Origin: Candidatus Saccharimonadota bacterium
Lineage (GTDB): Bacteria; Patescibacteriota; Gracilibacteria; BD1-5; UBA6164
NCBI GenBank assembly: GCA_963677765.1
Contig: OY782392.1
Location: 810,001-842,000 of the forward strand
Direction of reading: 5' to 3'
Length of the DNA: 32,000 nt
Shown here: positions 23,154-30,958 of the stretch, piece by piece
How positions within the stretch are numbered: position 1 is the stretch's first letter
Layout of the letters: each line of letters starts with the position of its first letter
The notes under the pieces: model-generated
What the model was told of the DNA's origin: nothing
Seen by the model: only the letters and a program-made list of their open reading frames with translations
Database searches by the model: none
Made by a program: the position numbers and the translations under genes

Positions 23154-23182
23154 ATATTATATATGGTGCCATGGCAGAGTGG
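23154..23182 (+). repeat. 29-bp exact copy of the tRNA-Cys upstream 11 nt plus tRNA positions 1-18
   Basis: ATATTATATATGGTGCCATGGCAGAGTGG is identical at 23154-23182 and 23354-23382. Confidence 0.9.
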
Positions 23183-23316
23183 CGATTAGGTAAGTATTAA
23201 TAGATGTAAAACGACGAATAGGAGTTTTAAAATCATTAATAGTCCTAGTGAGTGCGAAAGAGTCTGTAATGAAATGGAAGCGAATGAAGCGGACATCAGA
23301 GGTCTGAGCTCTGCAT
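23165..23316 (+). other. tRNA-Cys-derived, GC-enriched ~150-nt element (candidate structured RNA or decayed/disrupted tRNA copy); not a functional tRNA
   Basis: Starts with tRNA-Cys nt 1-18 and then diverges. I count 63 G+C in its first 150 nt, clearly above flanking spacers. Long-range pairing GCAGAG (23174-23179) with CTCTGC (23309-23314). Local stems TAGGA/TCCTA (23219-23223 / 23243-23247) and CGGAC/GTCTG with a 7-nt loop AUCAGAG (23290-23306). C-GAAA-G tetraloop at 23255-23260. No T-arm or 3' acceptor. Confidence 0.4.
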
Positions 23317-23353
23317 TAAACTAACGTTTCAAAAAAATAAATTGTTGATATAA

Positions 23354-23382
23354 ATATTATATATGGTGCCATGGCAGAGTGG
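23354..23382 (+). repeat. second copy of the 29-bp repeat (genuine tRNA-Cys 5' end and upstream 11 nt)
   Basis: Identical to 23154-23182. Confidence 0.9.
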
Positions 23383-23438
23383 TCATGCAGAGGTCTGCAA
23401 CACCTTGTACAGCGGTTCAATTCCGCTTGGCACCTCCA
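23365..23438 (+). tRNA. tRNA-Cys (anticodon GCA), CCA encoded
   Basis: Manual cloverleaf: acceptor GGTGCCA/TGGCACC; D-arm GCAG..TGC; anticodon stem GAGGT/ACCTT with loop CTGCAAC; T-arm AGCGG-TTCAATT-CCGCT; discriminator T then CCA. Confidence 0.9.
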
Positions 23439-23440
23439 TA
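23427..23440 (+). repeat. attL-like direct repeat = 3' end of tRNA-Cys (TTGGCACCTCCATA)
   Basis: Exact 14-mer repeated at 30847-30860. Similarity continues imperfectly (ACAAAAC vs TCAAAAAC). Confidence 0.85.
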
Positions 23441-23629
23441 ACAAAACATTCGTTGAGACTTTTTACCCATCTAGATTTTAGGATAGCTAAAGGAAAAAAC
23501 GAATAATATAATGAATTTAAAAACAAAAAAAGTACGAGTTAAAACTTAGTTTTGCTTGTGCTTTTTTTATTGTATGATTGATTAAAATTTAATATAAATT
23601 TAATATTTTACTGAATATAAAGGGAAAAA

Positions 23630-23657
23630 TTGCTTTTTTTGTTTAAAAGATTATAGT
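23630..23657 (+). promoter_or_regulatory. candidate sigma70-type promoter for the SAVED/CD-NTase pair
   Basis: TTGCTT-N16-TATAGT, 33 nt upstream of the ATG at 23690. Confidence 0.3.
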
Positions 23658-23689
23658 GAAAGGTATATTTATATGATTATCTATGTGTT

Positions 23690-24571
23690 ATGCTTGAATT
23701 CCTTGAACAATTTTTTGATTTTCTAAAGGATGCTAAACTTTTACGGGGTTTAATTATTTGATTAATAACTTTTATATTAAATTATTATTTATTTAGAAAA
23801 GATACAGATATATGAATTATTAGTACATATTCTGGTAAATCCATTCCTACCAAAAATCATATTAATAATGCTATCCATAGTCTTATTTTTAGAAATAGAA
23901 AAGATTATATTATTATGGATCAAGATTTAAATTCTAAATGATATACTAACGATACTTTAGATACTTTTATTACTGAAAATACATCACAAATAAAAAAACT
24001 TAGTAACTCAAATAATGTATTATCATTATTTTTGTTTGCTCATATGCCTTTAATTGTTTATTTAGGTTTTAAAATATGAAAATCAAAGAAAGTTGAGTTA
24101 TATCATAAATTAAGAACAGAAGATAAAAATGAGTGGAAATGGAAAAATATTATATTTAAAAATATATATAAAAATAAGTGGGAATATATTATTAATAAAA
24201 ATTTAGATGATAGTAAAAAAGACGTAATATTAGATATTGATATTTCTTTTCCTATTCACTGAAAAGACTTAATAGATTATACGAATAAATCTTATTATAG
24301 AATAGAGTTGATATGAAAAGATAATGAATTAATTAGAAATTCTTTTTTAAGATATAAATATCAATTAACAGAATTTTATAATATTGTTGAAAAAGCATTT
24401 TATGAAATAGAAGAAAAATTATGAAGTAATTGTAATATACATTTATTCTTAACAACTCCTAATCCTTTCTCATTTATTATATGACAACAAATACATATTA
24501 ATTGACCAAAAGTGTTAGTTTATGATAAAAATAATGAGTGAAATTATGTTGTGATGAAAATTATAAATTAA
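23690..24571 (+). CDS. CBASS-type effector candidate: N-terminal single TM helix fused to SAVED-like (double CARF-like) sensor domain
   Basis: 293 aa, verified codon by codon (11 in-frame TGA, stop TAA 24569-24571). TM helix LLRGLIIGLITFILNYYLF. Two repeated nucleotide-sensor-like motifs, VLSLFLFAHMPLIVYLGFKIG and NIHLFLTTPNPFSFIIGQQIH, as in the two halves of SAVED. No recognisable enzymatic domain. Confidence 0.65.
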
Positions 24572-24583
24572 CAATAAAATATA

Positions 24584-25921
24584 ATGAAATTAATAAGTTA
24601 TTTTGATGATTTTTTGAAATCAGAAGTAAATTTAGATCAAACAAGATTAGATACCGCAAATAGTAGAATAGAAACTATTACAGGGTTTATTGAAAATGAA
24701 AATTTATTTAGTAGGATATTTAAAAAGTCTACTCCTCAAGGTTCTTTTAAACATCAAACAATTATAAAACCTGTAAATGTTGATGATGAGTTTGATGTAG
24801 ATTTATTAATAGAATTAAATGAAATTGTAGGTTGGGAACCTAAGCATTATATTAATAATTTATATAGTATATTTAATGATAGTGATAGATATAATGATAT
24901 TGTAGAAAAAAATACCAGGTGTATAACATTGAATTATAAATCTGATTTTCATATGGATTTAGTACCTTGTATAAAAAAAATAGATAATTATTATATATTT
25001 AATGAAGAAGAAAATAGTACTGAAATAACTGATTGATATTGATATGCTGATTGGTTTAAAGAAAAAAATGATTTAACAAATTGAAACTTAAAGAAAGTTG
25101 TAAGATTATTAAAATATTTAAGAGATTATCATAATTCATTTGATATTAAATCAATACTACTTACTACTTTAATAGCAAGAGAAGTAAATGAAAATGAAGA
25201 TTATCAGGATGTACCATCAACATTAAAAATATTAATTAATAGTCTATCAGGAAAATTATACAATATTATATATTTAGATGACTTAGATTTATCTAACCCT
25301 GTATTACCTGATGAACAATTTGATAGACATATAAATCAAGATATATATGAGAATTTTAGAAATGAAATATTAAAACTTAATATTTTAATAGATGAAGCTT
25401 ATAATGAAACAGATAAAAATGTAAGCATAGAGCTTTGGAAAAATATATTTTGAGAGAGTTTTTGAAAATCAAATAGTAAAAATAGTATTGTAAAGATAAT
25501 AGCAAATGAATGGATGTGAGAGAAACCAGTTTGGGAGAAAAAACTTATTGGTAGAGTAGTAGTAAATTGTAATTACTATACTAGAATAAGTAAATATAAT
25601 ACACAAAAAATAACTGTAAAAAATTTACATACTTTTGTTATATGACAAAAAGTAAAGTTTTCAGCTTCAGTTTACAATATATCTTGACCTTATGAGGTTA
25701 AATGGCAAGTAGTAAATACTTGAGATGAGGTTAGGTGAGATAAGGAAAAAATGAGATGAGATTTTTTTAATTGAAGAGATGAAAATCTTAATGATGTAAA
25801 AAACTCACTTACAAATTGGGAGAAAATCTGATATAAATGAATTCATTGGATAAAGTGTTATATAATAAAAAATAATTTTATTGTATGAGAAAGTGAAAGA
25901 TTTTATGTAATTGTAGATTAA
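24584..25921 (+). CDS. SMODS-family nucleotidyltransferase (CD-NTase-like cyclic oligonucleotide synthase) with ~150-aa beta-rich C-terminal extension (AGS-C-like sensor domain)
   Basis: 445 aa. Pol-beta NTase catalytic pattern GSFKHQTIIKP...DEFDVDLLIEL plus third acidic residue in FHMDLVPC. Downstream ...LKKVVRLLKYLRD is typical of CD-NTases. The C-terminal 300-445 is rich in short beta-like segments (VVVNCNYY, VKFSASVYN, YEVKWQVVN, HWIKCYIIK). Starts 12 nt after the SAVED gene stop. Confidence 0.75.
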
Positions 25922-25956
25922 CTAATTTTATTTAATTAGTATTTATTAAAGATATA

Positions 25957-25965
25957 TGATATAAT
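25957..25965 (+). promoter_or_regulatory. extended -10 element TGATATAAT
   Basis: Perfect TGnTATAAT 28 nt upstream of the ATG at 25993. Preceded by a weak A/T hairpin (25921-25940) after the CD-NTase stop. Confidence 0.4.
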
Positions 25966-25992
25966 CATAAATATATAAAATAATATTTTATT

Positions 25993-26919
25993 ATGGAATT
26001 AGAAATAAATAGGATTTCTCTATATTTAGCTTGAAAATTACCTCCATATTATAAACCATTTGATAAAATGGAATTTATGGAAGAATTAATGTGAATATTT
26101 TCTGATGAATTTTCAGAAAGTACTTTTAATTTTATACAAAATCAATCAAAAACAGACGAGCAGTTTTATTCTATGTCTTTAAATAAAGCTAAAAGAATTA
26201 ATAAAGCTAAATTAGTTTTATTTTTAGATAAAATTAATGTTAAAGATGATGCAAGAAGTATTATTCAAGATAGAAAAGAATCTGAAATAAATTGAAAAGA
26301 AGAATTACAATTAAAAATCAAAGAATTAACAAAACCAATAATAATCACAGAATGAAAAACAGATGTAAAAATCTTAAATATTGCTTGGAATAAACTATAC
26401 CCAGATTTAGAATGTCCTTTTAATATAATAGAGAATTGAATAGAAAAATGAAATGAATTACCAAAAAATGGGAGTGCAGAGTGACTTAAAAATCAATTAA
26501 ACTATAGTACTATATATTGAAAAGATAGGTTAATAATATGACTTTTTGATAATGATAAAGAATGAAATGAGCAATTTAAATGATTATATAAAGATTTATT
26601 TGAGAAATACGATTTATATAAAGATATAAGAAAACATAAAGATTATAATATTTATTGATTGTTATTGCAGGTACCTGAGTTTAGAAAAAATTATGTAAGT
26701 TCAGATGATATTAAGCAAAGGTATTTTCAAATTGAACATTATTTTTCTGATGAAATTCTTAATGAAAACAATATGAAAAAGAAGGAAATAATTAAGTGAA
26801 CTTGAATTTTTGAAATATGATGAAGTAAAGACTCTTTTTCAAAATCAGTAGAAAAATTAGAATTAAAAGAATTTGAGAATTTTAAAATATTATTTGAAAG
26901 AATATTAAAGTATATATAA
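25993..26919 (+). CDS. Toprim-domain protein, DUF4435/AriB-like C-terminal nuclease domain with unrecognised ~115-aa N-terminal domain
   Basis: 308 aa. Toprim Glu motif PIIITEGKTDVKIL (Gly is TGA). DxD motif IIGLFDNDKEG. Downstream QIEHYF resembles the ENYL motif of DUF4435 proteins. No partner ABC/AAA ATPase gene nearby. Confidence 0.6.
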
Positions 26920-26928
26920 AAAATAATA

Positions 26929-26958
26929 AAACTCTAGACTAAAAAATCTAGAGTTTTT
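26929..26958 (+). terminator. intrinsic terminator
   Basis: 9-bp stem aactctaga/tctagagtt, 8-nt loop, T-run. Confidence 0.7.
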
Positions 26959-26979
26959 CTTTTAAATGACCTTAAATTT

Positions 26980-27008
26980 AAGGGGGTAAAAAGTCTTAAT
27001 GCCCCCTT
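26980..27008. other. isolated G/C-run hairpin AAGGGGG-N15-CCCCCTT in a ~300-bp non-coding stretch
   Basis: 7-bp stem containing five consecutive G:C pairs, very unusual for this AT-rich DNA. Only three T follow, so it is a poor terminator. Confidence 0.5.
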
Positions 27009-27214
27009 TGATATATCCATTTTGAAAATTTAGAAATTTTACGAATTTTAAATAAGGGCTTTCCGCTAAGGTTAGCTTTTTTTAGTGTCTATAAAAAGTT
27101 CAATAATTAGTTTTTTAATGCCAACCGTCTTTTGTTCTTTATTTAGTGAGTTTTGGCTTTCATATAGGGAAGAATAGAGTTCAATAATTCTGTTTATTAT
27201 AAAAAAATATATTT

Positions 27215-27243
27215 TTGACAATATTTACTTTATATGTTTTAAT
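27215..27243 (+). promoter_or_regulatory. candidate sigma70-type promoter for the Mrr-HRDC gene
   Basis: Consensus -35 TTGACA, 17-nt spacer ending in TG, then TTTAAT. 35 nt upstream of the ATG at 27278. Confidence 0.45.
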
Positions 27244-27277
27244 ATATTAAATATATTAAAACTTTATTTAATACATA

Positions 27278-28177
27278 ATGAAAATAAATAAACTAGACTT
27301 AGCTAAAGTTATAAGTGACTTTATGTTTTTAAATGAGGAAAATCCTGAAGAAAAAGCTAAAGTTGTTTTTAAAGTCAAACATAAGCTAACTGCACATTGA
27401 TTTGAAAAATATATGCAATACTATTTTGAAAAAATAAAAGGCTATAAAGTAACTCTTAATTGAAGAACTTATGAGTTTGATTGAGGTATTGATTTAAAGT
27501 GAATAAAACAAGAAAATTGAGTTAATAAATACTTAGTGGTGCAATGTAAGAAATACTCAATTAAAGATATAACAGAGGAGAATATAAGAAGTTTTCAATG
27601 AGGTACAATACATAAATATGCTCAATATAAAGAAGATACAGAAACTTATTATATTACTACTTCAAAATTTACTGATAGAGCTGAAAAGTTTGCTAATGAA
27701 GTATGAATAAAAGCAATAGATTTTTTTCACATATATAAATTACAGAAAGTTTATTCTGTAGAAAAATTTGAAGAAGATTTGAAAAAAGAGGAATGAATAA
27801 GAGAATATAATAAATCTTTCGAAGAAGACCAAATGATTTTAGATCTTGATAATCAAGTATATGAAACAATTTGAGTTACAAATAATGAGGTATTTCAATT
27901 GTTAAAACAAGTAAGAAGAGATTATTCTCATCATAAACAATTAAGGTTATGAGATATTGCTAGAAATGATACTTTAGAATTATTATCTAGAAAAAGACCT
28001 CATAATTTACAAGCATTAAAAGAAACAATATCTCATTTATCTACAAGAGAGCAAAATAAATTAATAAAACACTGAACAATTTTTGTAGAAAGATTAAAAT
28101 ATATTGATAATGAAGAATGACATCAAGAACTAATAGAAAAATCATTTTTTAGTAAATTGGTAGAATTTATAAAATAA
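27278..28177 (+). CDS. Mrr-type restriction endonuclease (PD-(D/E)xK, Mrr_cat) fused to HRDC-like C-terminal domain
   Basis: 299 aa. FDGGIDLKG...YLVVQCKKY...ETYYITTSKFTDRAEKFA is the Mrr catalytic-domain pattern. The C-terminal VFQLLKQVRRDYSHHKQLRLGDIARNDTLELLSRKRPHNLQALKETI resembles HRDC helices. Confidence 0.7.
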
Positions 28178-28178
28178 A

Positions 28179-28208
28179 AAACCCTATGTGAATTTTTCAT
28201 AGGGTTTT
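28179..28208. terminator. bidirectional intrinsic terminator
   Basis: 10-bp perfect stem aaaccctatg/catagggttt, 9-nt loop, flanked by A-run and T-run. Confidence 0.7.
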
Positions 28209-28218
28209 ATTATTATTT

Positions 28219-28581
28219 TTATAAAAACTCTTTAATAAAAATAAATATTCAAAATATTATAAATAATGTTAATATAAAATAATAAATATAATCATAAGAT
28301 TTAGATTCAATTATTTCCTTATTTATTTTATTTGTATCTTTAATTTCAATATTATTTAATTCATTTATGTTACTAATATTATTTAGATTTATATTATAGC
28401 TTTCTTTGGGTAATAAAAATTTCCAAAATCTATATGTTATATAAATGATACTAACAGTAAAAAATATTATAAAAGCATAAATTATTAAGCTAAGACTTAT
28501 GGATGAAATAATTACATCTGTAAATTCATTTCAGTTATTTATTGGAGTATTAAATAAATTTTCAGAAATCGTTCTTATCAT
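28219..28581 (-). CDS. small 2-TM membrane protein
   Basis: 120 aa. ATG 28581-28579, stop TAA 28221-28219. Two hydrophobic helices separated by an N/K/I-rich linker. Extremely AT-rich, so coding status is less certain. Confidence 0.45.
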
Positions 28582-28607
28582 AATGTTTAAATTAATTATA
28601 AAAATTT

Positions 28608-29273
28608 TTATTTATTTTTAACATATTTTTCATTTATAATATTTCAATACTTTATTTTTTTTATATGATTTATATTTCATATTTTTTTATTATGAGATAT
28701 TATGTAACTAAAAAATATTATTGTTTTAGCTATATCTTGTCATGAATAAAAATGAAAATCGTTATTAATTATTATTTCTAAAACTTTTTTATATATGAAT
28801 CTATATGATCATCAATGCCTTAAAATATCAAGTATTATGTCATCATTGTTTTCAAAAAATAATATATAATAAATATTATTTTTTATTTTTTCATCAAAAA
28901 ACTTTTTATTATAATAATTACTTTCATTATTTTTATTACTATAAATGAAATTTTCTATATCTTTTAATGTATCTAATGCACTCTGTATTTTAATTGAATA
29001 ATAATTTTTCTTATACTTCCTATATATAAAATTAAGTTCAAAAAATATTATAATAGTAATATTAATAATAAATAATTCATATAAGTTTAAATTTATAAAC
29101 TGTTCTTTGAATATGAATAAAGATAAACTAAAAACTAAAAAATATATTAAAAATCTTTTTTTAAATTTTTTATTATTTTTTAAAATATTAATGTCTTTAT
29201 CTACTAAAGATACATCAATCATAATTCCTGATATAAAGAATAATAATATTAAACCTACCAAAAAGTCTCACAT
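28608..29273 (-). CDS. membrane protein (3 N-terminal TM helices plus ~130-aa soluble domain)
   Basis: Extends track ORF 28812-29261 through two TGA codons (..RHGGSYRF..) to TAA at 28610-28608. An ATG at 29273-29271 lies 4 codons upstream of the TTG used in the track. Confidence 0.5.
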
Positions 29274-29395
29274 ATTGTATTTAATAAAAAATAAACATAT
29301 TTTAATATTACTATATAATATAATAAATTCAATTTTAAGTTTGTAATTTGAAATTTATTTATAATAATATATATATTATTTTTTACTATTTTTTT

Positions 29396-29791
29396 ATGAA
29401 ACTTATAATAAATTTTATTAGATATATTTTATTTATAATATTTTCATTTTTAGCTTCTGAGTTAATATTTTATTTATTTACTTTACTTTTAGGATTTATA
29501 TCATCACTTTCAATTTTTTGGTTAATAATATTTTTTATTTTCCTTTTTTGAGCTGTTAGTTGAGTTTTATATTTATTTTCTTGATTATTAATATATTTAA
29601 TATGACTTATTTCACCTTCAAAAATTATATGATCTTACATATTTTCATTTATTATATTAATATATTTTTCTTTATATATGTATGATATAATTTTTATTAA
29701 TGAATGAATAATATTTAAAATATTTATTTCTTTATTATTTAGTTATTTTACTTTAATTCTTATTTTCTTTTCTTTTAATAATGAAAATTAA
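29396..29791 (+). CDS. small polytopic membrane protein
   Basis: 131 aa from the ATG at 29396. Continues past the TGA at 29552. Almost entirely F/I/L/Y. Overlaps the next gene by 11 nt. Confidence 0.45.
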
Positions 29792-30134
29792 TATAAATAA
29801 TAATAAAAAAATTATTATATTAAATTTAATAGCTATTATTTTACTAATAGGAACTTTATTTGATTTTCCATATTTTTATTATCAAATATTAAGATGGTAT
29901 ATATTTATAGCTTTTATATTCATAATCTATAATTTGTATTTAATAGATAAAATTAAATTTAACATATTAATATATATTTATTGATTTATTGCAATAATTT
30001 TCAATCCTATATCACCATTTTATTTTTGATGAGATATATGGTTTATTATAGATATAATTACAGTTTTTGTTATAGTTTTTAATATTTTTTACTACAATTA
30101 TATATCATCTAAAATATCTCTTAATATTCAATAA
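29781..30134 (+). CDS. small 4-TM membrane protein
   Basis: 117 aa. ...YYQILRWYIFIAFIF...IAIIFNPISPFYFGGDIWFIIDI... Continues through TGA codons to TAA 30132-30134. Confidence 0.55.
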
Positions 30135-30143
30135 TCTTTATTT
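30105..30143 (+). repeat. 39-bp direct repeat, copy 1 (3' end of the 29781-30134 gene plus 9 nt)
   Basis: TCATCTAAAATATCTCTTAATATTCAATAATCTTTATTT. Copy 2 at 30808-30846 differs at 2 positions. Confidence 0.85.
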
Positions 30144-30234
30144 CAATTATATTTATTTAAGTGTTATGGGTTAAACTTTTTCATGTTAGTTTATGTTATG
30201 TTTTAATAATGTAAAGTTTATGGTAAAAATTTTC

Positions 30235-30265
30235 AAAAAGACACGGAACTATCCGTGTCTTTTTT
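30235..30265. terminator. bidirectional intrinsic terminator (G/C-containing stem)
   Basis: agacacgga-acta-tccgtgtct with an A-run on the left and a T-run on the right. Confidence 0.7.
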
Positions 30266-30737
30266 ATATTCATTTTTTTATTCTTATTGAAAATATATCT
30301 CATTTAAAGTGTTTAATTCAATCATAGTCATGATTTATATTATAAAATGTTACTTCAATTATCATTCAATCTACTTTCCAAGAATAAGATTTTAATGAAT
30401 TATTTGTTCATTCTATATTCTCAGTTTTATAATATTCTCATAAGTCTTTTTTTATGTCTTCTAAACTAGATTTTATATTTATATTTCAATAAATATATCA
30501 ATTATAAAGCTCCCATTCTGAATTAACTCTAGAAGGAAAAAATATTCAATCTACTTTATTATATTTATTATATTCCAATCAAAATCACAAATTTTGATAA
30601 CTTCAATTTTTACTTTCTCATACCAAATCTACAACTGACTCTCTAGTATCATTAAGTTGAATTTTAAATCTATATTCATTATTAACACTGCAAGAATATA
30701 ATAGTAATAATATAGTTAATATAAATATTTTTTTCAT
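30264..30737 (-). CDS. hypothetical lipoprotein
   Basis: 157 aa. MKKIFILTILLLLYSCS lipobox. The soluble remainder has many TGA-encoded Gly. Stop TAA 30266-30264. Confidence 0.6.
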
Positions 30738-30807
30738 AATGATTTAATTAATTAATATTTTTTTTATAATACTTTTTAAAATATAAAAATCAATTTATAA
30801 TTCTACC

Positions 30808-30846
30808 TCATCTAAAATTTCTCTCAATATTCAATAATCTTTATTT
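30808..30846 (+). repeat. 39-bp direct repeat, copy 2 (orphan 3' gene fragment abutting the attR-like repeat)
   Basis: Encodes ..SSKISLNIQ* like copy 1 but has an in-frame TAA about 14 codons upstream. Ends 1 nt before TTGGCACCTCCATA. Confidence 0.85.
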
Positions 30847-30860
30847 TTGGCACCTCCATA
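30847..30860 (+). repeat. attR-like direct repeat (orphan copy of tRNA-Cys 3' end)
   Basis: TTGGCACCTCCATA is identical to 23427-23440. No T-arm or other tRNA sequence precedes it. Confidence 0.85.
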
Positions 30861-30870
30861 TCAAAAACAA

Positions 30871-30899
30871 AAAAACCGACTATTTTTAGTCGGTTTTTT
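30871..30899 (+). terminator. intrinsic terminator, probably the ancestral tRNA-Cys terminator
   Basis: Stem ccgacta/tagtcgg extended by A:T pairs, loop tttt, T-run. 10 nt after the attR-like repeat. Confidence 0.7.
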
Positions 30900-30958
30900 A
30901 CATTTATATAAAAATATTGTAAAATATATATGAAATTTATAAATTTTAAAAATTACAT

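What the first reader, a model, noticed from the sequence alone, without database searches (positions are those of the whole stretch)
23690..25921. CBASS-like two-gene module in a recoded CPR genome: TM-SAVED effector followed by a SMODS/CD-NTase with a C-terminal sensor-like extension
The downstream gene has the CD-NTase/SMODS catalytic signature (GS...DxD, third Asp in HMDLVP, RLLKYLRD helix). It also has a ~150-aa beta-rich tail reminiscent of the AGS-C sensor domain defined in comparative-genomic work on SMODS systems. The upstream gene, separated by only 12 nt, has one TM helix and two CARF-like repeats characteristic of SAVED, with no nuclease, TIR or patatin domain. There are no Cap2/Cap3 or HORMA/TRIP13 genes, so this is a minimal type-I-like layout with effector-first order. 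The inferred mechanism is cyclic-oligonucleotide-triggered oligomerisation of a single-pass membrane protein leading to membrane disruption. Such a system in an ultra-small, probably host-dependent bacterium is noteworthy. It has 11 and 20 UGA-Gly codons in the two genes, so it is invisible to standard pipelines. It also raises the question of which phages it targets.
Basis: partly seen in the sequence, partly recalled or inferred. Interest (0 to 1): 0.8.

Follow-up and report, generated by a model that had tools for sequence, protein, structure and literature searches.

The report
Minimal CBASS phage-defence operon, recoded bacterium
These two genes are a real but ordinary-type two-gene CBASS anti-phage system (a nucleotide-signal synthase plus a membrane-anchored signal receptor), written in the rare genetic code where TGA means glycine; its only unusual feature is a receptor with one membrane helix instead of three.

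Summary
Read with TGA = Gly (code 25, shown directly in these genes), 23690-24571 encodes a 293-aa protein with one N-terminal transmembrane helix plus a complete SAVED domain. After a 12-nt gap, 24584-25921 encodes a 445-aa CD-NTase (SMODS) with intact GS / DxD / D catalytic residues and a C-terminal AGS-C domain. Profile hits, high-confidence AlphaFold models and Foldseek matches all agree. No Cap2/Cap3 or HORMA/TRIP13 genes are nearby, so this is a type I CBASS.

- The literature says about 40% of type I CBASS cyclases carry AGS-C.
- TM-SAVED effectors (Cap14) have been characterised experimentally.
- Effector-first order is the rule in this cyclase subfamily.
- Close cyclase relatives occur in many phyla, including several CPR lineages.
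- Both proteins are already in public databases as code-4 translations.
- The TGA counts are 10 and 15, not 11 and 20.

New here: the effector keeps only the last TM helix of Cap14's three-helix membrane domain. This 1TM-SAVED form appears only in TGA-recoded relatives. The operon also lies in a 7.4-kb island bounded by a repeat of the tRNA-Cys 3' end.

Verdict: new member of a known kind, modest interest.

The parts
23690..24571 (+). Effector gene: 293-aa single-pass membrane protein with a SAVED domain (1TM-SAVED, Cap14-like); 10 in-frame TGA = Gly
   Evidence: ORF under code 25. Pfam SAVED E 7.2e-25. NCBIfam SAVED aa 53-286. The PADLOC '1TM' CBASS effector model PDLC00663 matches aa 24-283, E 3.2e-9. 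AlphaFold pLDDT 89.4. Foldseek matches Cap5, 3TM-SAVED and Cap14 SAVED domains.
23732..23794 (+). Transmembrane helix of the effector (aa 15-35), preceded by a short acidic amphipathic helix (aa 2-13) and followed by R36-K37
   Evidence: AlphaFold helices 2-13 and 15-34. One hydropathy peak. It aligns with the last TM helix (residues ~80-105) of BtCap14 / 3TM-SAVED in a profile search. A single TM is conserved in five relatives.
23804..24565 (+). SAVED (double CARF-like) nucleotide-sensor domain, aa 39-292; includes R142 (24113-24115), which aligns with the ligand-stacking Arg234 of L. lactis Cap5
   Evidence: Pairwise alignment to 7rwm/7rws, read together with the residue roles described in PMC8568899. 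The same Arg column is shared with BtCap14.
24572..24583 (+). 12-nt intergenic spacer; the two genes are probably co-transcribed
   Evidence: Sequence. No terminator-like site lies between the genes.
24584..25921 (+). CD-NTase (SMODS) - AGS-C fusion gene, 445 aa; 15 in-frame TGA = Gly
   Evidence: Pfam SMODS E 2.4e-33, DncV-like NTase E 2.9e-8, AGS_C E 7.9e-19. PADLOC cyclase PDLC00793 matches end to end, E 3.4e-124. AlphaFold pLDDT 91.2. Foldseek matches CdnD/CdnC/CdnB/CdnG with E 7e-18 to 1e-13.
24740..24958 (+). Catalytic core: G53-S54 (24740-24745), D71-V-D73 (24794-24802), D125 (24956-24958)
   Evidence: Read from the sequence. These residues are invariant in alignments of 20 and 41 homologues.
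25511..25918 (+). AGS-C domain (aa ~310-445), beta-rich, joined to the cyclase by a low-confidence linker (aa 297-309)
   Evidence: Pfam AGS_C aa 326-444, 68.4 bits against a cut-off of 26.7. The model shows ~10 strands and a linker with pLDDT below 50.
23365..23438 (+). tRNA-Cys(GCA), candidate integration site of the island that carries the operon
   Evidence: ARAGORN. Rfam tRNA 59.9 bits.
23427..23446 (+). Left copy of a 20-nt direct repeat (last 12 nt of tRNA-Cys plus 8 nt): candidate attL
   Evidence: two matches in the window, none in 100 shuffles.
30847..30866 (+). Right copy of the repeat (19/20 identical): candidate attR, closing a 7.4-kb island (23439-30866)

Best explanation
This is a functional two-gene type I CBASS anti-phage system in a bacterium that reads TGA as glycine (the code-25 Gracilibacteria/Absconditabacteria lineage of the CPR).

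Shown:
- Gene 2 is a cGAS/DncV-like nucleotidyltransferase with all catalytic residues, fused to an Ig-like AGS-C domain.
- Gene 1 is a single-pass membrane protein whose cytoplasmic part is a complete SAVED domain.
- Gene 1 is homologous to Cap5 SAVED domains, and to Cap14 / 3TM-SAVED from Cap14's last TM helix to the C-terminus.
- The pair is conserved in the same order in at least four other TGA-recoded relatives.
- Its codon usage is fully adapted to the host.

Inferred:
- Phage infection relieves inhibition of the cyclase, possibly through the AGS-C domain.
- The cyclase makes a cyclic dinucleotide, most likely a cGAMP-type molecule with a 2'-5' bond, because the nearest SAVED relatives bind 3',2'- or 2',3'-cGAMP and the ligand-stacking Arg is kept.
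- Ligand binding drives head-to-tail SAVED oligomerisation. This lines up the single TM helices in the membrane, breaks the permeability barrier and kills or arrests the cell before phage release (abortive infection).

The operon rides on a 7.4-kb tRNA-Cys-associated island together with an Mrr-type restriction nuclease gene.
For: - Code 25; see also the YmdB-like GDxxGRxGR motif.
- Domains.
- Catalytic residues invariant.
- Folds: cyclase model pLDDT 91.2, matching CD-NTase structures; effector model pLDDT 89.4, matching Cap5, 3TM-SAVED and BtCap14 SAVED structures bound to cGAMP isomers.
- Effector profile against the PDB: DwCap5 1.7e-15, LlCap5 1.6e-8. BtCap14 and 3TM-SAVED give about 3e-7 over profile positions 15-292, which correspond to chain residues 80-357, that is the last TM helix plus SAVED.
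- Conserved operon in recoded relatives L001-L005, each with a single TM once start codons are corrected.
- TGA supplies 84-87% of Gly codons both inside and outside the island.
- No Cap2/3, HORMA or TRIP13 in the neighbourhood.
- Mechanistic precedent: CdnB-Cap14 confers phage defence, and Cap14 binds 2',3'-cGAMP and permeabilises membranes after ligand-induced filament formation (PMC10402079; PMC13434031).
- AGS-C is correlated with phage specificity (bioRxiv 10.1101/2023.05.21.541620).
Against: - Nothing here is experimental: no product, ligand or phenotype is known for this system.
- The effector lacks the first ~80 residues of Cap14 (two helices and the hairpin that is reported to rearrange in the filament). 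The Cap14 membrane mechanism therefore cannot simply be transferred.
- The cyclase profile is nearer to CdnD- and CdnG-type structures than to CdnB, the usual Cap14 partner. The nucleotide is therefore uncertain.
- The AlphaFold inputs had Trp at the TGA positions, because the tool would not accept the code-25 translation.
- The island has no recombinase gene, and one relative (L004) carries a cyclase with its active site deleted. Decay of such systems does occur in this lineage.
Confidence: 0.75

Rival explanations
1. Same system, but the effector acts as a gated ion channel or depolariser that causes reversible growth arrest. It would not be a filament that ruptures the membrane.
For: The first description of Cap14 reported a 2',3'-cGAMP-gated chloride-selective channel (PMC10402079). 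Single-TM CARF effectors of type III CRISPR are reported to depolarise membranes (title and abstract of bioRxiv 10.1101/2025.11.13.688252). One helix per subunit fits a small bundle pore better than a bilayer-shearing array.
Against: Later work summarised in PMC13434031 describes filaments and non-selective permeability for Cap14 / 3TM-SAVED. Nothing in the sequence discriminates between the two modes.
Confidence: 0.15
2. The operon is a decaying, no longer functional remnant of a mobile defence island.
For: There is no integrase or recombinase between the att-like repeats. Relative L004 has a cyclase with a ~95-aa deletion that removes DxD and the third Asp. The effector looks like an N-terminally shortened Cap14.
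Against: Both ORFs are intact over 293 and 445 codons, and every invariant catalytic and structural residue is kept. The single-TM form is conserved across relatives of 27-49% identity, which argues for selection rather than a recent truncation. Codon usage is fully ameliorated.
Confidence: 0.07
3. A SMODS/SAVED signalling pair used for something other than phage defence, for example regulating the episymbiont's interaction with its host cell.
For: The organism probably depends on a host cell. AGS-C is a generic sensor-type domain of unknown ligand.
Against: The cyclase matches a CBASS cyclase model end to end (E 3.4e-124). In relatives its partner genes are classical CBASS killers, patatin and HNH-SAVED. 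It sits on a tRNA-linked island next to an Mrr-type nuclease, and in relatives next to recombinase and primase genes of mobile elements.
Confidence: 0.03

Closest known systems
CdnB-Cap14 type I CBASS of Bacillus thuringiensis 407 (Cap14 = Saf-2TM + SAVED; PDB 9om7, and 3TM-SAVED 9wq2/9wq3)
   Same: It is a two-gene type I operon whose effector is an N-terminal membrane anchor plus a C-terminal SAVED domain. The effector profile aligns with Cap14 from its last TM helix through the whole SAVED domain (E ~3e-7), and the folds match. The expected logic, ligand-induced SAVED oligomerisation acting on the membrane, is the same.
   Different: It has one TM helix instead of three and lacks the inter-helix hairpin. 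By sequence, the SAVED domain is closer to Cap5 than to Cap14. The cyclase carries AGS-C and by profile is nearer to CdnD- and CdnG-type structures than to CdnB structures. The host uses code 25.
CdnG-Cap5 / CdnB-Cap5 CBASS (HNH-SAVED effectors; PDB 8ysq, 7rwm, 7rws, 8fmf)
   Same: These are the closest SAVED domains by sequence and by fold. The ligand-stacking Arg is conserved (with PMC8568899). In 29 of the 80 fetched loci, the same cyclase subfamily is paired with an upstream SAVED-domain effector, mostly ~390-400 aa. The one of this size that was scanned (L015) gave only a weak HNH_2 hit.
   Different: There is no HNH nuclease domain; a single TM helix takes its place. The output is therefore expected to be membrane damage rather than DNA degradation.
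Type I CBASS operons with CD-NTase-AGS-C fusions (Richmond-Buccola et al., bioRxiv 10.1101/2023.05.21.541620)
   Same: The cyclase architecture is the same (NTase core plus a ~18-kDa Ig-like AGS-C), with no accessory genes. PADLOC model PDLC00793 matches full length.
   Different: The tested operons are gammaproteobacterial. The CD-NTase clade of this enzyme could not be assigned with the tools available.
Patatin (CapV-like) + CD-NTase-AGS-C operons in Saccharibacteria, Moranbacteria, Wolfebacteria and many other phyla
   Same: These are the nearest non-recoded cyclase relatives (36-41% identity). The order is also effector first, usually with a 4-nt overlap.
   Different: The effector is a phospholipase rather than a TM-SAVED protein.

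Membership tests
CD-NTase / SMODS nucleotidyltransferase | Profile match above the curated threshold | tested here: met
   Pfam SMODS 116.1 bits (cut-off 26.5) and DncV-like_NTFase 35 bits (cut-off 24.9). PADLOC cyclase PDLC00793 E 3.4e-124.
CD-NTase / SMODS nucleotidyltransferase | Catalytic G-S loop, DxD and third acidic residue | tested here: met
   G53-S54, D71/D73 and D125 are invariant in 20- and 41-sequence alignments.
CD-NTase / SMODS nucleotidyltransferase | Pol-beta-like NTase fold with a helical C-lobe | tested here: met
   Model pLDDT 91.2. Foldseek matches CdnD, CdnC, CdnB, CdnG, DncV and CdnE; target-normalised TM-score is 0.65-0.78 for the CdnD, CdnC, CdnB and CdnG hits and about 0.50-0.64 for DncV and CdnE.
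CD-NTase / SMODS nucleotidyltransferase | Synthesis of a cyclic oligonucleotide | not testable with these tools
   Needs in vitro assays of the recoded protein.
CD-NTase clade (A-H) | Placement in the reference CD-NTase tree | tested here: inconclusive
   No reference tree was available. Profile against the PDB: BcCdnD 8e-26, SmCdnG 2e-25, EcCdnD 8e-17, CdnC 1e-12, BfCdnB 2e-10, DwCdnB 1e-6. The literature restricts AGS-C in type I CBASS to clades B, H and parts of F and G. Whether clades F and H are represented among solved structures was not checked.
AGS-C domain | Profile match above threshold at the C-terminus of a cyclase; beta-rich fold | tested here: met
   Pfam AGS_C 68.4 bits (cut-off 26.7), aa 326-444. 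About 10 strands in the model.
SAVED domain | Profile match above threshold covering both CARF-like halves | tested here: met
   Pfam SAVED 88.2 bits (cut-off 26.2). NCBIfam NF033611 91 bits (cut-off 33), aa 53-286 aligned to profile positions 18-253 of 261.
SAVED domain | SAVED fold | tested here: met
   Model pLDDT 89.4, pTM 0.85. Foldseek gives E 1.9e-14 to the Cap5 SAVED domain 8ysq, with TM-score 0.77 on the target.
Type I CBASS | Cyclase plus an adjacent nucleotide-sensing effector in one operon | tested here: met
   12-nt spacing on the same strand. The pair is conserved in L001-L005.
Type I CBASS | No Cap2/Cap3 (E1/E2/JAB) or HORMA/TRIP13 accessory genes | tested here: met
   Pfam and NCBIfam scans of ORFs between 20.7 and 31.8 kb, and a PADLOC scan of the four genes at 23690-28177, gave no such hits.
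Type I CBASS | Protects against phage | not testable with these tools
   Needs a surrogate-host challenge.
Cap14 (Saf-2TM + SAVED effector) | Sequence homology to Cap14 across the SAVED domain | tested here: met
   Profile A2 against 9om7_F (BtCap14) E 3.5e-7 and 9wq2_B E 2.7e-7, covering profile positions 15-293. Pairwise phmmer found no hit at E <= 1.
Cap14 (Saf-2TM + SAVED effector) | Saf-2TM membrane domain (three helices with a hairpin) | tested here: not met
   Only one TM helix (aa 15-34), preceded by a 13-residue helix. The alignment starts at Cap14 residue 80. I therefore file it as Cap14-like 1TM-SAVED, not as Cap14.
Cap14 (Saf-2TM + SAVED effector) | Binds 2',3'-cGAMP and forms filaments | not testable with these tools
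   Only the conserved Arg142 column could be checked.
Cap5 (HNH-SAVED effector) | N-terminal HNH nuclease domain | tested here: not met
   No HNH hit. The N-terminus is 38 residues of helix and TM only.
Genetic code 25 (TGA = Gly) | In-frame TGA at conserved Gly positions, TGG at Trp positions | tested here: met
   TGA makes up 87% of Gly codons in 15 flanking genes.

The most novel reading that the evidence does not exclude
The single-helix SAVED effector may be a lineage-specific minimal membrane killer. It cannot use the inter-helix hairpin rearrangement described for Cap14 / 3TM-SAVED. It would therefore disrupt the membrane by a different and simpler principle: a ligand-templated row or bundle of single TM helices. 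It would have evolved inside the TGA = Gly lineage, where recoding isolates the genes from exchange with standard-code bacteria.
Probability: 0.3. Interest if true: 0.5.

Novelty: new member of a known kind. Interest (0 to 1): 0.3.

Why it matters
- It confirms that abortive-infection signalling of the cGAS-like type is maintained in ultra-small, recoded CPR bacteria. It has been there long enough for TGA to supply about three quarters of the glycine codons in the two genes.
- It offers the smallest natural TM-SAVED effector seen here (293 aa, one helix). That makes it a convenient minimal model for asking how SAVED oligomerisation is converted into membrane damage.
- It is a practical reminder that defence-system surveys run with table 11 will miss these genes. 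They would see only a 150-aa fragment.
- It does not reveal a new kind of system.

Tried and rejected
- Table 4 (TGA = Trp) was rejected in favour of table 25, from column-by-column comparison with non-recoded homologues.
- Source organism: exact look-ups of the database copies P0001 and P0121 returned no contig. The genome scan did not return the source genome. The organism is therefore named only by its genetic code.
- More effector relatives: a second word-seeded search with a 5-sequence profile found nothing new. Pattern scans of JGI metagenomes and IMG/VR confirmed no relative. The exhaustive search of 1.84 billion representatives found only 7 proteins at E <= 1e-10.
- CD-NTase clade assignment from PDB sequence and fold ranks was inconclusive.
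- A third operon gene: g3 (25993-26919) lies 71 nt downstream on the same strand and is followed by a hairpin. It has no homologue next to the relatives' operons and no significant family hit. I did not count it as part of the system.
- The tRNA-like duplicate upstream of tRNA-Cys gave no Rfam or ARAGORN hit.
- A literature search for CBASS in Gracilibacteria found nothing. CPR defensomes have been surveyed in general.
Full report
1. What is there

The window is 21.7% G+C. With the standard code almost nothing is callable. With only TAA and TAG as stops the window is densely coding, and in-frame TGA is very frequent. TGA means glycine, not tryptophan. In the downstream gene of the finding, TGA codons sit on columns that are Gly in all or nearly all non-recoded homologues: aa 290, 392 and 419 in 16/16; aa 380 in 15/16; aa 153 in 14/16. 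The eight TGG codons mostly sit on invariant Trp columns. A YmdB-type phosphoesterase elsewhere in the window reads GDIYGRIGRAG only under this code. TGA supplies 87% of Gly codons in 15 flanking genes and 84% in the genes around the finding. The host is therefore a code-25 bacterium of the Gracilibacteria/Absconditabacteria branch of the CPR. I could not name it more precisely.

2. The two genes

Gene 1 (23690-24571, 293 aa, 10 TGA) and gene 2 (24584-25921, 445 aa, 15 TGA) are on the + strand, 12 nt apart.

Gene 2:
- It matches Pfam SMODS (E 2.4e-33), the DncV-like NTase core (2.9e-8) and AGS_C (7.9e-19, aa 326-444).
- It matches one PADLOC CBASS cyclase model end to end (1-444 against 1-461 of 462, E 3.4e-124).
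- In alignments of 20 and 41 homologues, Q52-G53-S54, D71, D73, D125 and the RLxKYxRD helix are invariant.
- An AlphaFold model has mean pLDDT 91.2, with a disordered linker at aa 297-309 and a C-terminal domain of about ten strands.
- Foldseek places the N-terminal 300 residues on CdnD, CdnC, CdnB, CdnG, DncV and CdnE structures (E down to 7e-18).

Gene 1:
- It matches Pfam SAVED (E 7.2e-25). The NCBIfam SAVED model covers aa 53-286.
- PADLOC effector models of the HNH-SAVED, 2TM and 1TM classes match it. The 1TM model aligns from aa 24, so it includes the membrane helix.
- Its AlphaFold model (pLDDT 89.4, pTM 0.85) shows a short helix at aa 2-13, a TM helix at aa 15-34, and an alpha/beta domain at aa 39-292.
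- Foldseek matches the Cap5 SAVED domains (8ysq, 7rwm, 8fmf, 9dif). It also matches the recently solved '3TM-SAVED' dimer and filament bound to 2',3'-cGAMP (9wq2, 9wq3) and the BtCap14 SAVED domain (9om7).

Neighbourhood: Pfam and NCBIfam scans of ORFs between 20.7 and 31.8 kb, and a PADLOC scan of the four genes at 23690-28177, gave no E1/E2/JAB, HORMA or TRIP13 hits.

3. Relatives

Both proteins are already in the public protein collection, from a 1,048,296-bp NCBI/ENA contig. There they are translated with Trp at every TGA, and they already carry Pfam SMODS/AGS_C/SAVED hits. Under table 11 only a 150-aa fragment of the cyclase is callable.

The next cyclase relatives (62, 54 and 49% identity) and the only close effector relatives come from contigs that are also TGA-recoded. 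In all of them the order is 1TM-SAVED followed by SMODS-AGS_C. Two database gene calls had lost the TM helix through a late start codon; the true starts restore it. One relative (L004) has a cyclase with a ~95-aa deletion that removes the active site.

An exhaustive HMMER search of 1.84 billion representatives found only 4 proteins at E <= 1e-30 and 7 at E <= 1e-10. The full-length matches are all Trp-rich at Gly positions, so they are recoded. The remaining hits were mostly ~380-390-aa proteins, and the one inspected (P0130) has an HNH-like N-terminus.

The cyclase subfamily, by contrast, is widespread. A scan of one genome per species found 504 loci. The best 80 span Acidobacteriota, Actinomycetota, Bacteroidota, Cyanobacteria and Proteobacteria, plus at least eight CPR genomes (Saccharibacteria, Moranbacteria, Wolfebacteria and unclassified Patescibacteria).

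In about 74 of those 80 loci a same-strand gene lies directly upstream of the cyclase, usually overlapping it by 4 nt. Across all 85 fetched loci this upstream gene is a patatin phospholipase in 40, a longer SAVED protein in 29, and the 1TM-SAVED form only in the recoded contigs. The one longer SAVED protein of that size class that was scanned gave a weak HNH hit.

In a neighbour-joining tree (no support values) the recoded cyclases form one clade. It sits next to a CPR-rich group that is mostly paired with patatin.

Effector-first order, AGS-C fusion and presence in CPR are therefore all ordinary for this subfamily. The particular effector is specific to the lineage.

4. Relation to characterised systems

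A profile of the five 1TM-SAVED proteins, searched against PDB sequences, gave:
- D. wulumuqiensis Cap5, E 1.7e-15.
- L. lactis Cap5, E 1.6e-8.
- BtCap14 and 3TM-SAVED, E about 3e-7.

The Cap14 alignment runs from profile position 15 to 292, which corresponds to Cap14 residues 80-357. That is the last Cap14 TM helix plus the whole SAVED domain. The effector is thus a Cap14-like protein lacking Cap14's first two helices and hairpin, with a SAVED domain somewhat closer to Cap5.

Arg142 aligns with Arg234 of L. lactis Cap5. In that protein this Arg stacks on the adenine and contacts the 2'-5' phosphate of 3',2'-cGAMP (PMC8568899). The same column is Arg in Cap14.

The cyclase profile ranks B. cereus CdnD (8e-26) and S. 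marcescens CdnG (2e-25) above CdnB structures (2e-10 and 1e-6). I could not assign a clade.

5. Mechanism

Literature, not tested here:
- CdnB-Cap14 protects B. subtilis from phages. Cap14 binds 2',3'-cGAMP at about 11 nM and conducts ions (PMC10402079).
- A 2026 review reports that TM-SAVED/Cap14 goes from monomer through dimer to filament on ligand binding, and opens the membrane (PMC13434031).
- About 40% of type I CBASS cyclases carry AGS-C. The domain correlates with which phages are restricted, and escape mutations map to virion assembly proteins (bioRxiv 10.1101/2023.05.21.541620).

Inference for this locus: infection activates the cyclase, possibly through AGS-C. A cyclic dinucleotide, probably with a 2'-5' bond, binds the cytoplasmic SAVED domain. 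SAVED stacking then aligns the single TM helices and the membrane barrier fails, aborting the infection. R36-K37 after the helix fit an N-out / C-in topology.

Because the hairpin-bearing part of Cap14 is absent, the membrane step may differ in detail. A small helical-bundle channel is the main rival. A decayed remnant and a non-defence signalling role are less likely, because the ORFs are intact, the invariant residues are kept and the architecture is conserved.

6. Context

The last 12 nt of tRNA-Cys (23365-23438) plus the next 8 nt are repeated 19/20 at 30847-30866. No such match occurred in 100 shuffles. The 7.4 kb between the repeats holds:
- the CBASS pair;
- an unassigned gene with Toprim-like motifs (25993-26919);
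- an Mrr-cat + HRDC nuclease gene (27278-28177);
- very AT-rich small membrane-protein ORFs.

There is no recombinase. In relatives the operon lies a few kb from serine recombinase, HTH and primase genes. This looks like a small, possibly immobilised, defence island. Its codon usage shows long residence in code-25 hosts.

7. Verdict

It is a new member of a known, experimentally characterised kind of system. The single-helix, code-25-restricted effector is the only feature worth following up.

Noticed in passing
window 23427-23446 and 30847-30866: A 20-nt direct repeat (19/20), consisting of the 3' end of tRNA-Cys plus 8 nt. It bounds a 7.4-kb segment that carries the CBASS pair, a Toprim-like gene, an Mrr-type nuclease gene and AT-rich membrane ORFs, with no recombinase inside. 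It looks like att sites of an integrated, possibly immobilised, defence island. A strong hairpin plus T-run follows the right copy (30868-30900).
   Followed up: partly
window 23154-23182 vs 23354-23382, and 23183-23330: The 11 nt upstream of tRNA-Cys plus its first 18 nt are duplicated exactly 200 nt upstream. They are followed by ~150 nt of comparatively G+C-rich sequence that also shares CAGAGGTCTG with the tRNA anticodon arm. ARAGORN does not call it a tRNA and Rfam gives no hit. It could be a disrupted tRNA copy or an unknown small RNA.
   Followed up: partly
window 25993-26919 (+), hairpin 26928-26957: A 308-aa ORF lies 71 nt downstream of the cyclase on the same strand and ends at a 13-bp bidirectional terminator-like hairpin. 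It has Toprim-like motifs (IIITEGKTD, GLFDNDKEG), but its best family hit is only Toprim_2 at E 0.07. There were no hits in PADLOC, NCBIfam or PHROGs and only chance-level PDB sequence matches (best E 0.03). It is not found next to the relatives' operons.
   Followed up: partly
window 27278-28177 (+): A 299-aa protein with an Mrr_cat restriction-endonuclease domain (E 2.2e-15), a C-terminal HRDC-like region just below the Pfam cut-off (21.6 vs 23.8 bits), and a hit to PADLOC PDC-S02 (2.5e-10). Weak homologues lie just upstream of the CBASS effector gene in two gammaproteobacterial loci (L013, L024).
   Followed up: partly
window 28219-30134: A stretch of only 13% G+C encodes four small, very hydrophobic ORFs on both strands. 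One of them (29781-30134) matches DUF6804 (E 1.4e-17). Their function is unknown.
   Followed up: no
window 30093-30143 and 30796-30846: A 51-nt direct repeat (88% identical) flanks the lipoprotein-like gene 30264-30737 (-). The second copy abuts the right att-like repeat, which suggests a secondary insertion or duplication at the island's end.
   Followed up: no
L004 2547-3605 (JGI contig SA2_1000785): A recoded relative's cyclase has an internal deletion of ~95 aa that removes the DxD motif and the third catalytic Asp, while the AGS-C domain and the upstream 1TM-SAVED gene remain intact. This is a decaying copy of the same system.
   Followed up: partly
L001 1-5450; L002 1-1936; L003 754-1500: In recoded relatives the same operon lies a few kb from serine recombinase (Resolvase) and HTH genes. 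L001 additionally has DUF5906 and DnaG zinc-ribbon primase genes, which indicates carriage on mobile elements.
   Followed up: no
L003 / L011 (GCA_964458505.1, CAYWJC010000142.1): A contig labelled 'uncultured Candidatus Peribacteria bacterium' clearly uses TGA as a sense codon in these genes. Its taxonomic label or assumed genetic code may need checking.
   Followed up: no
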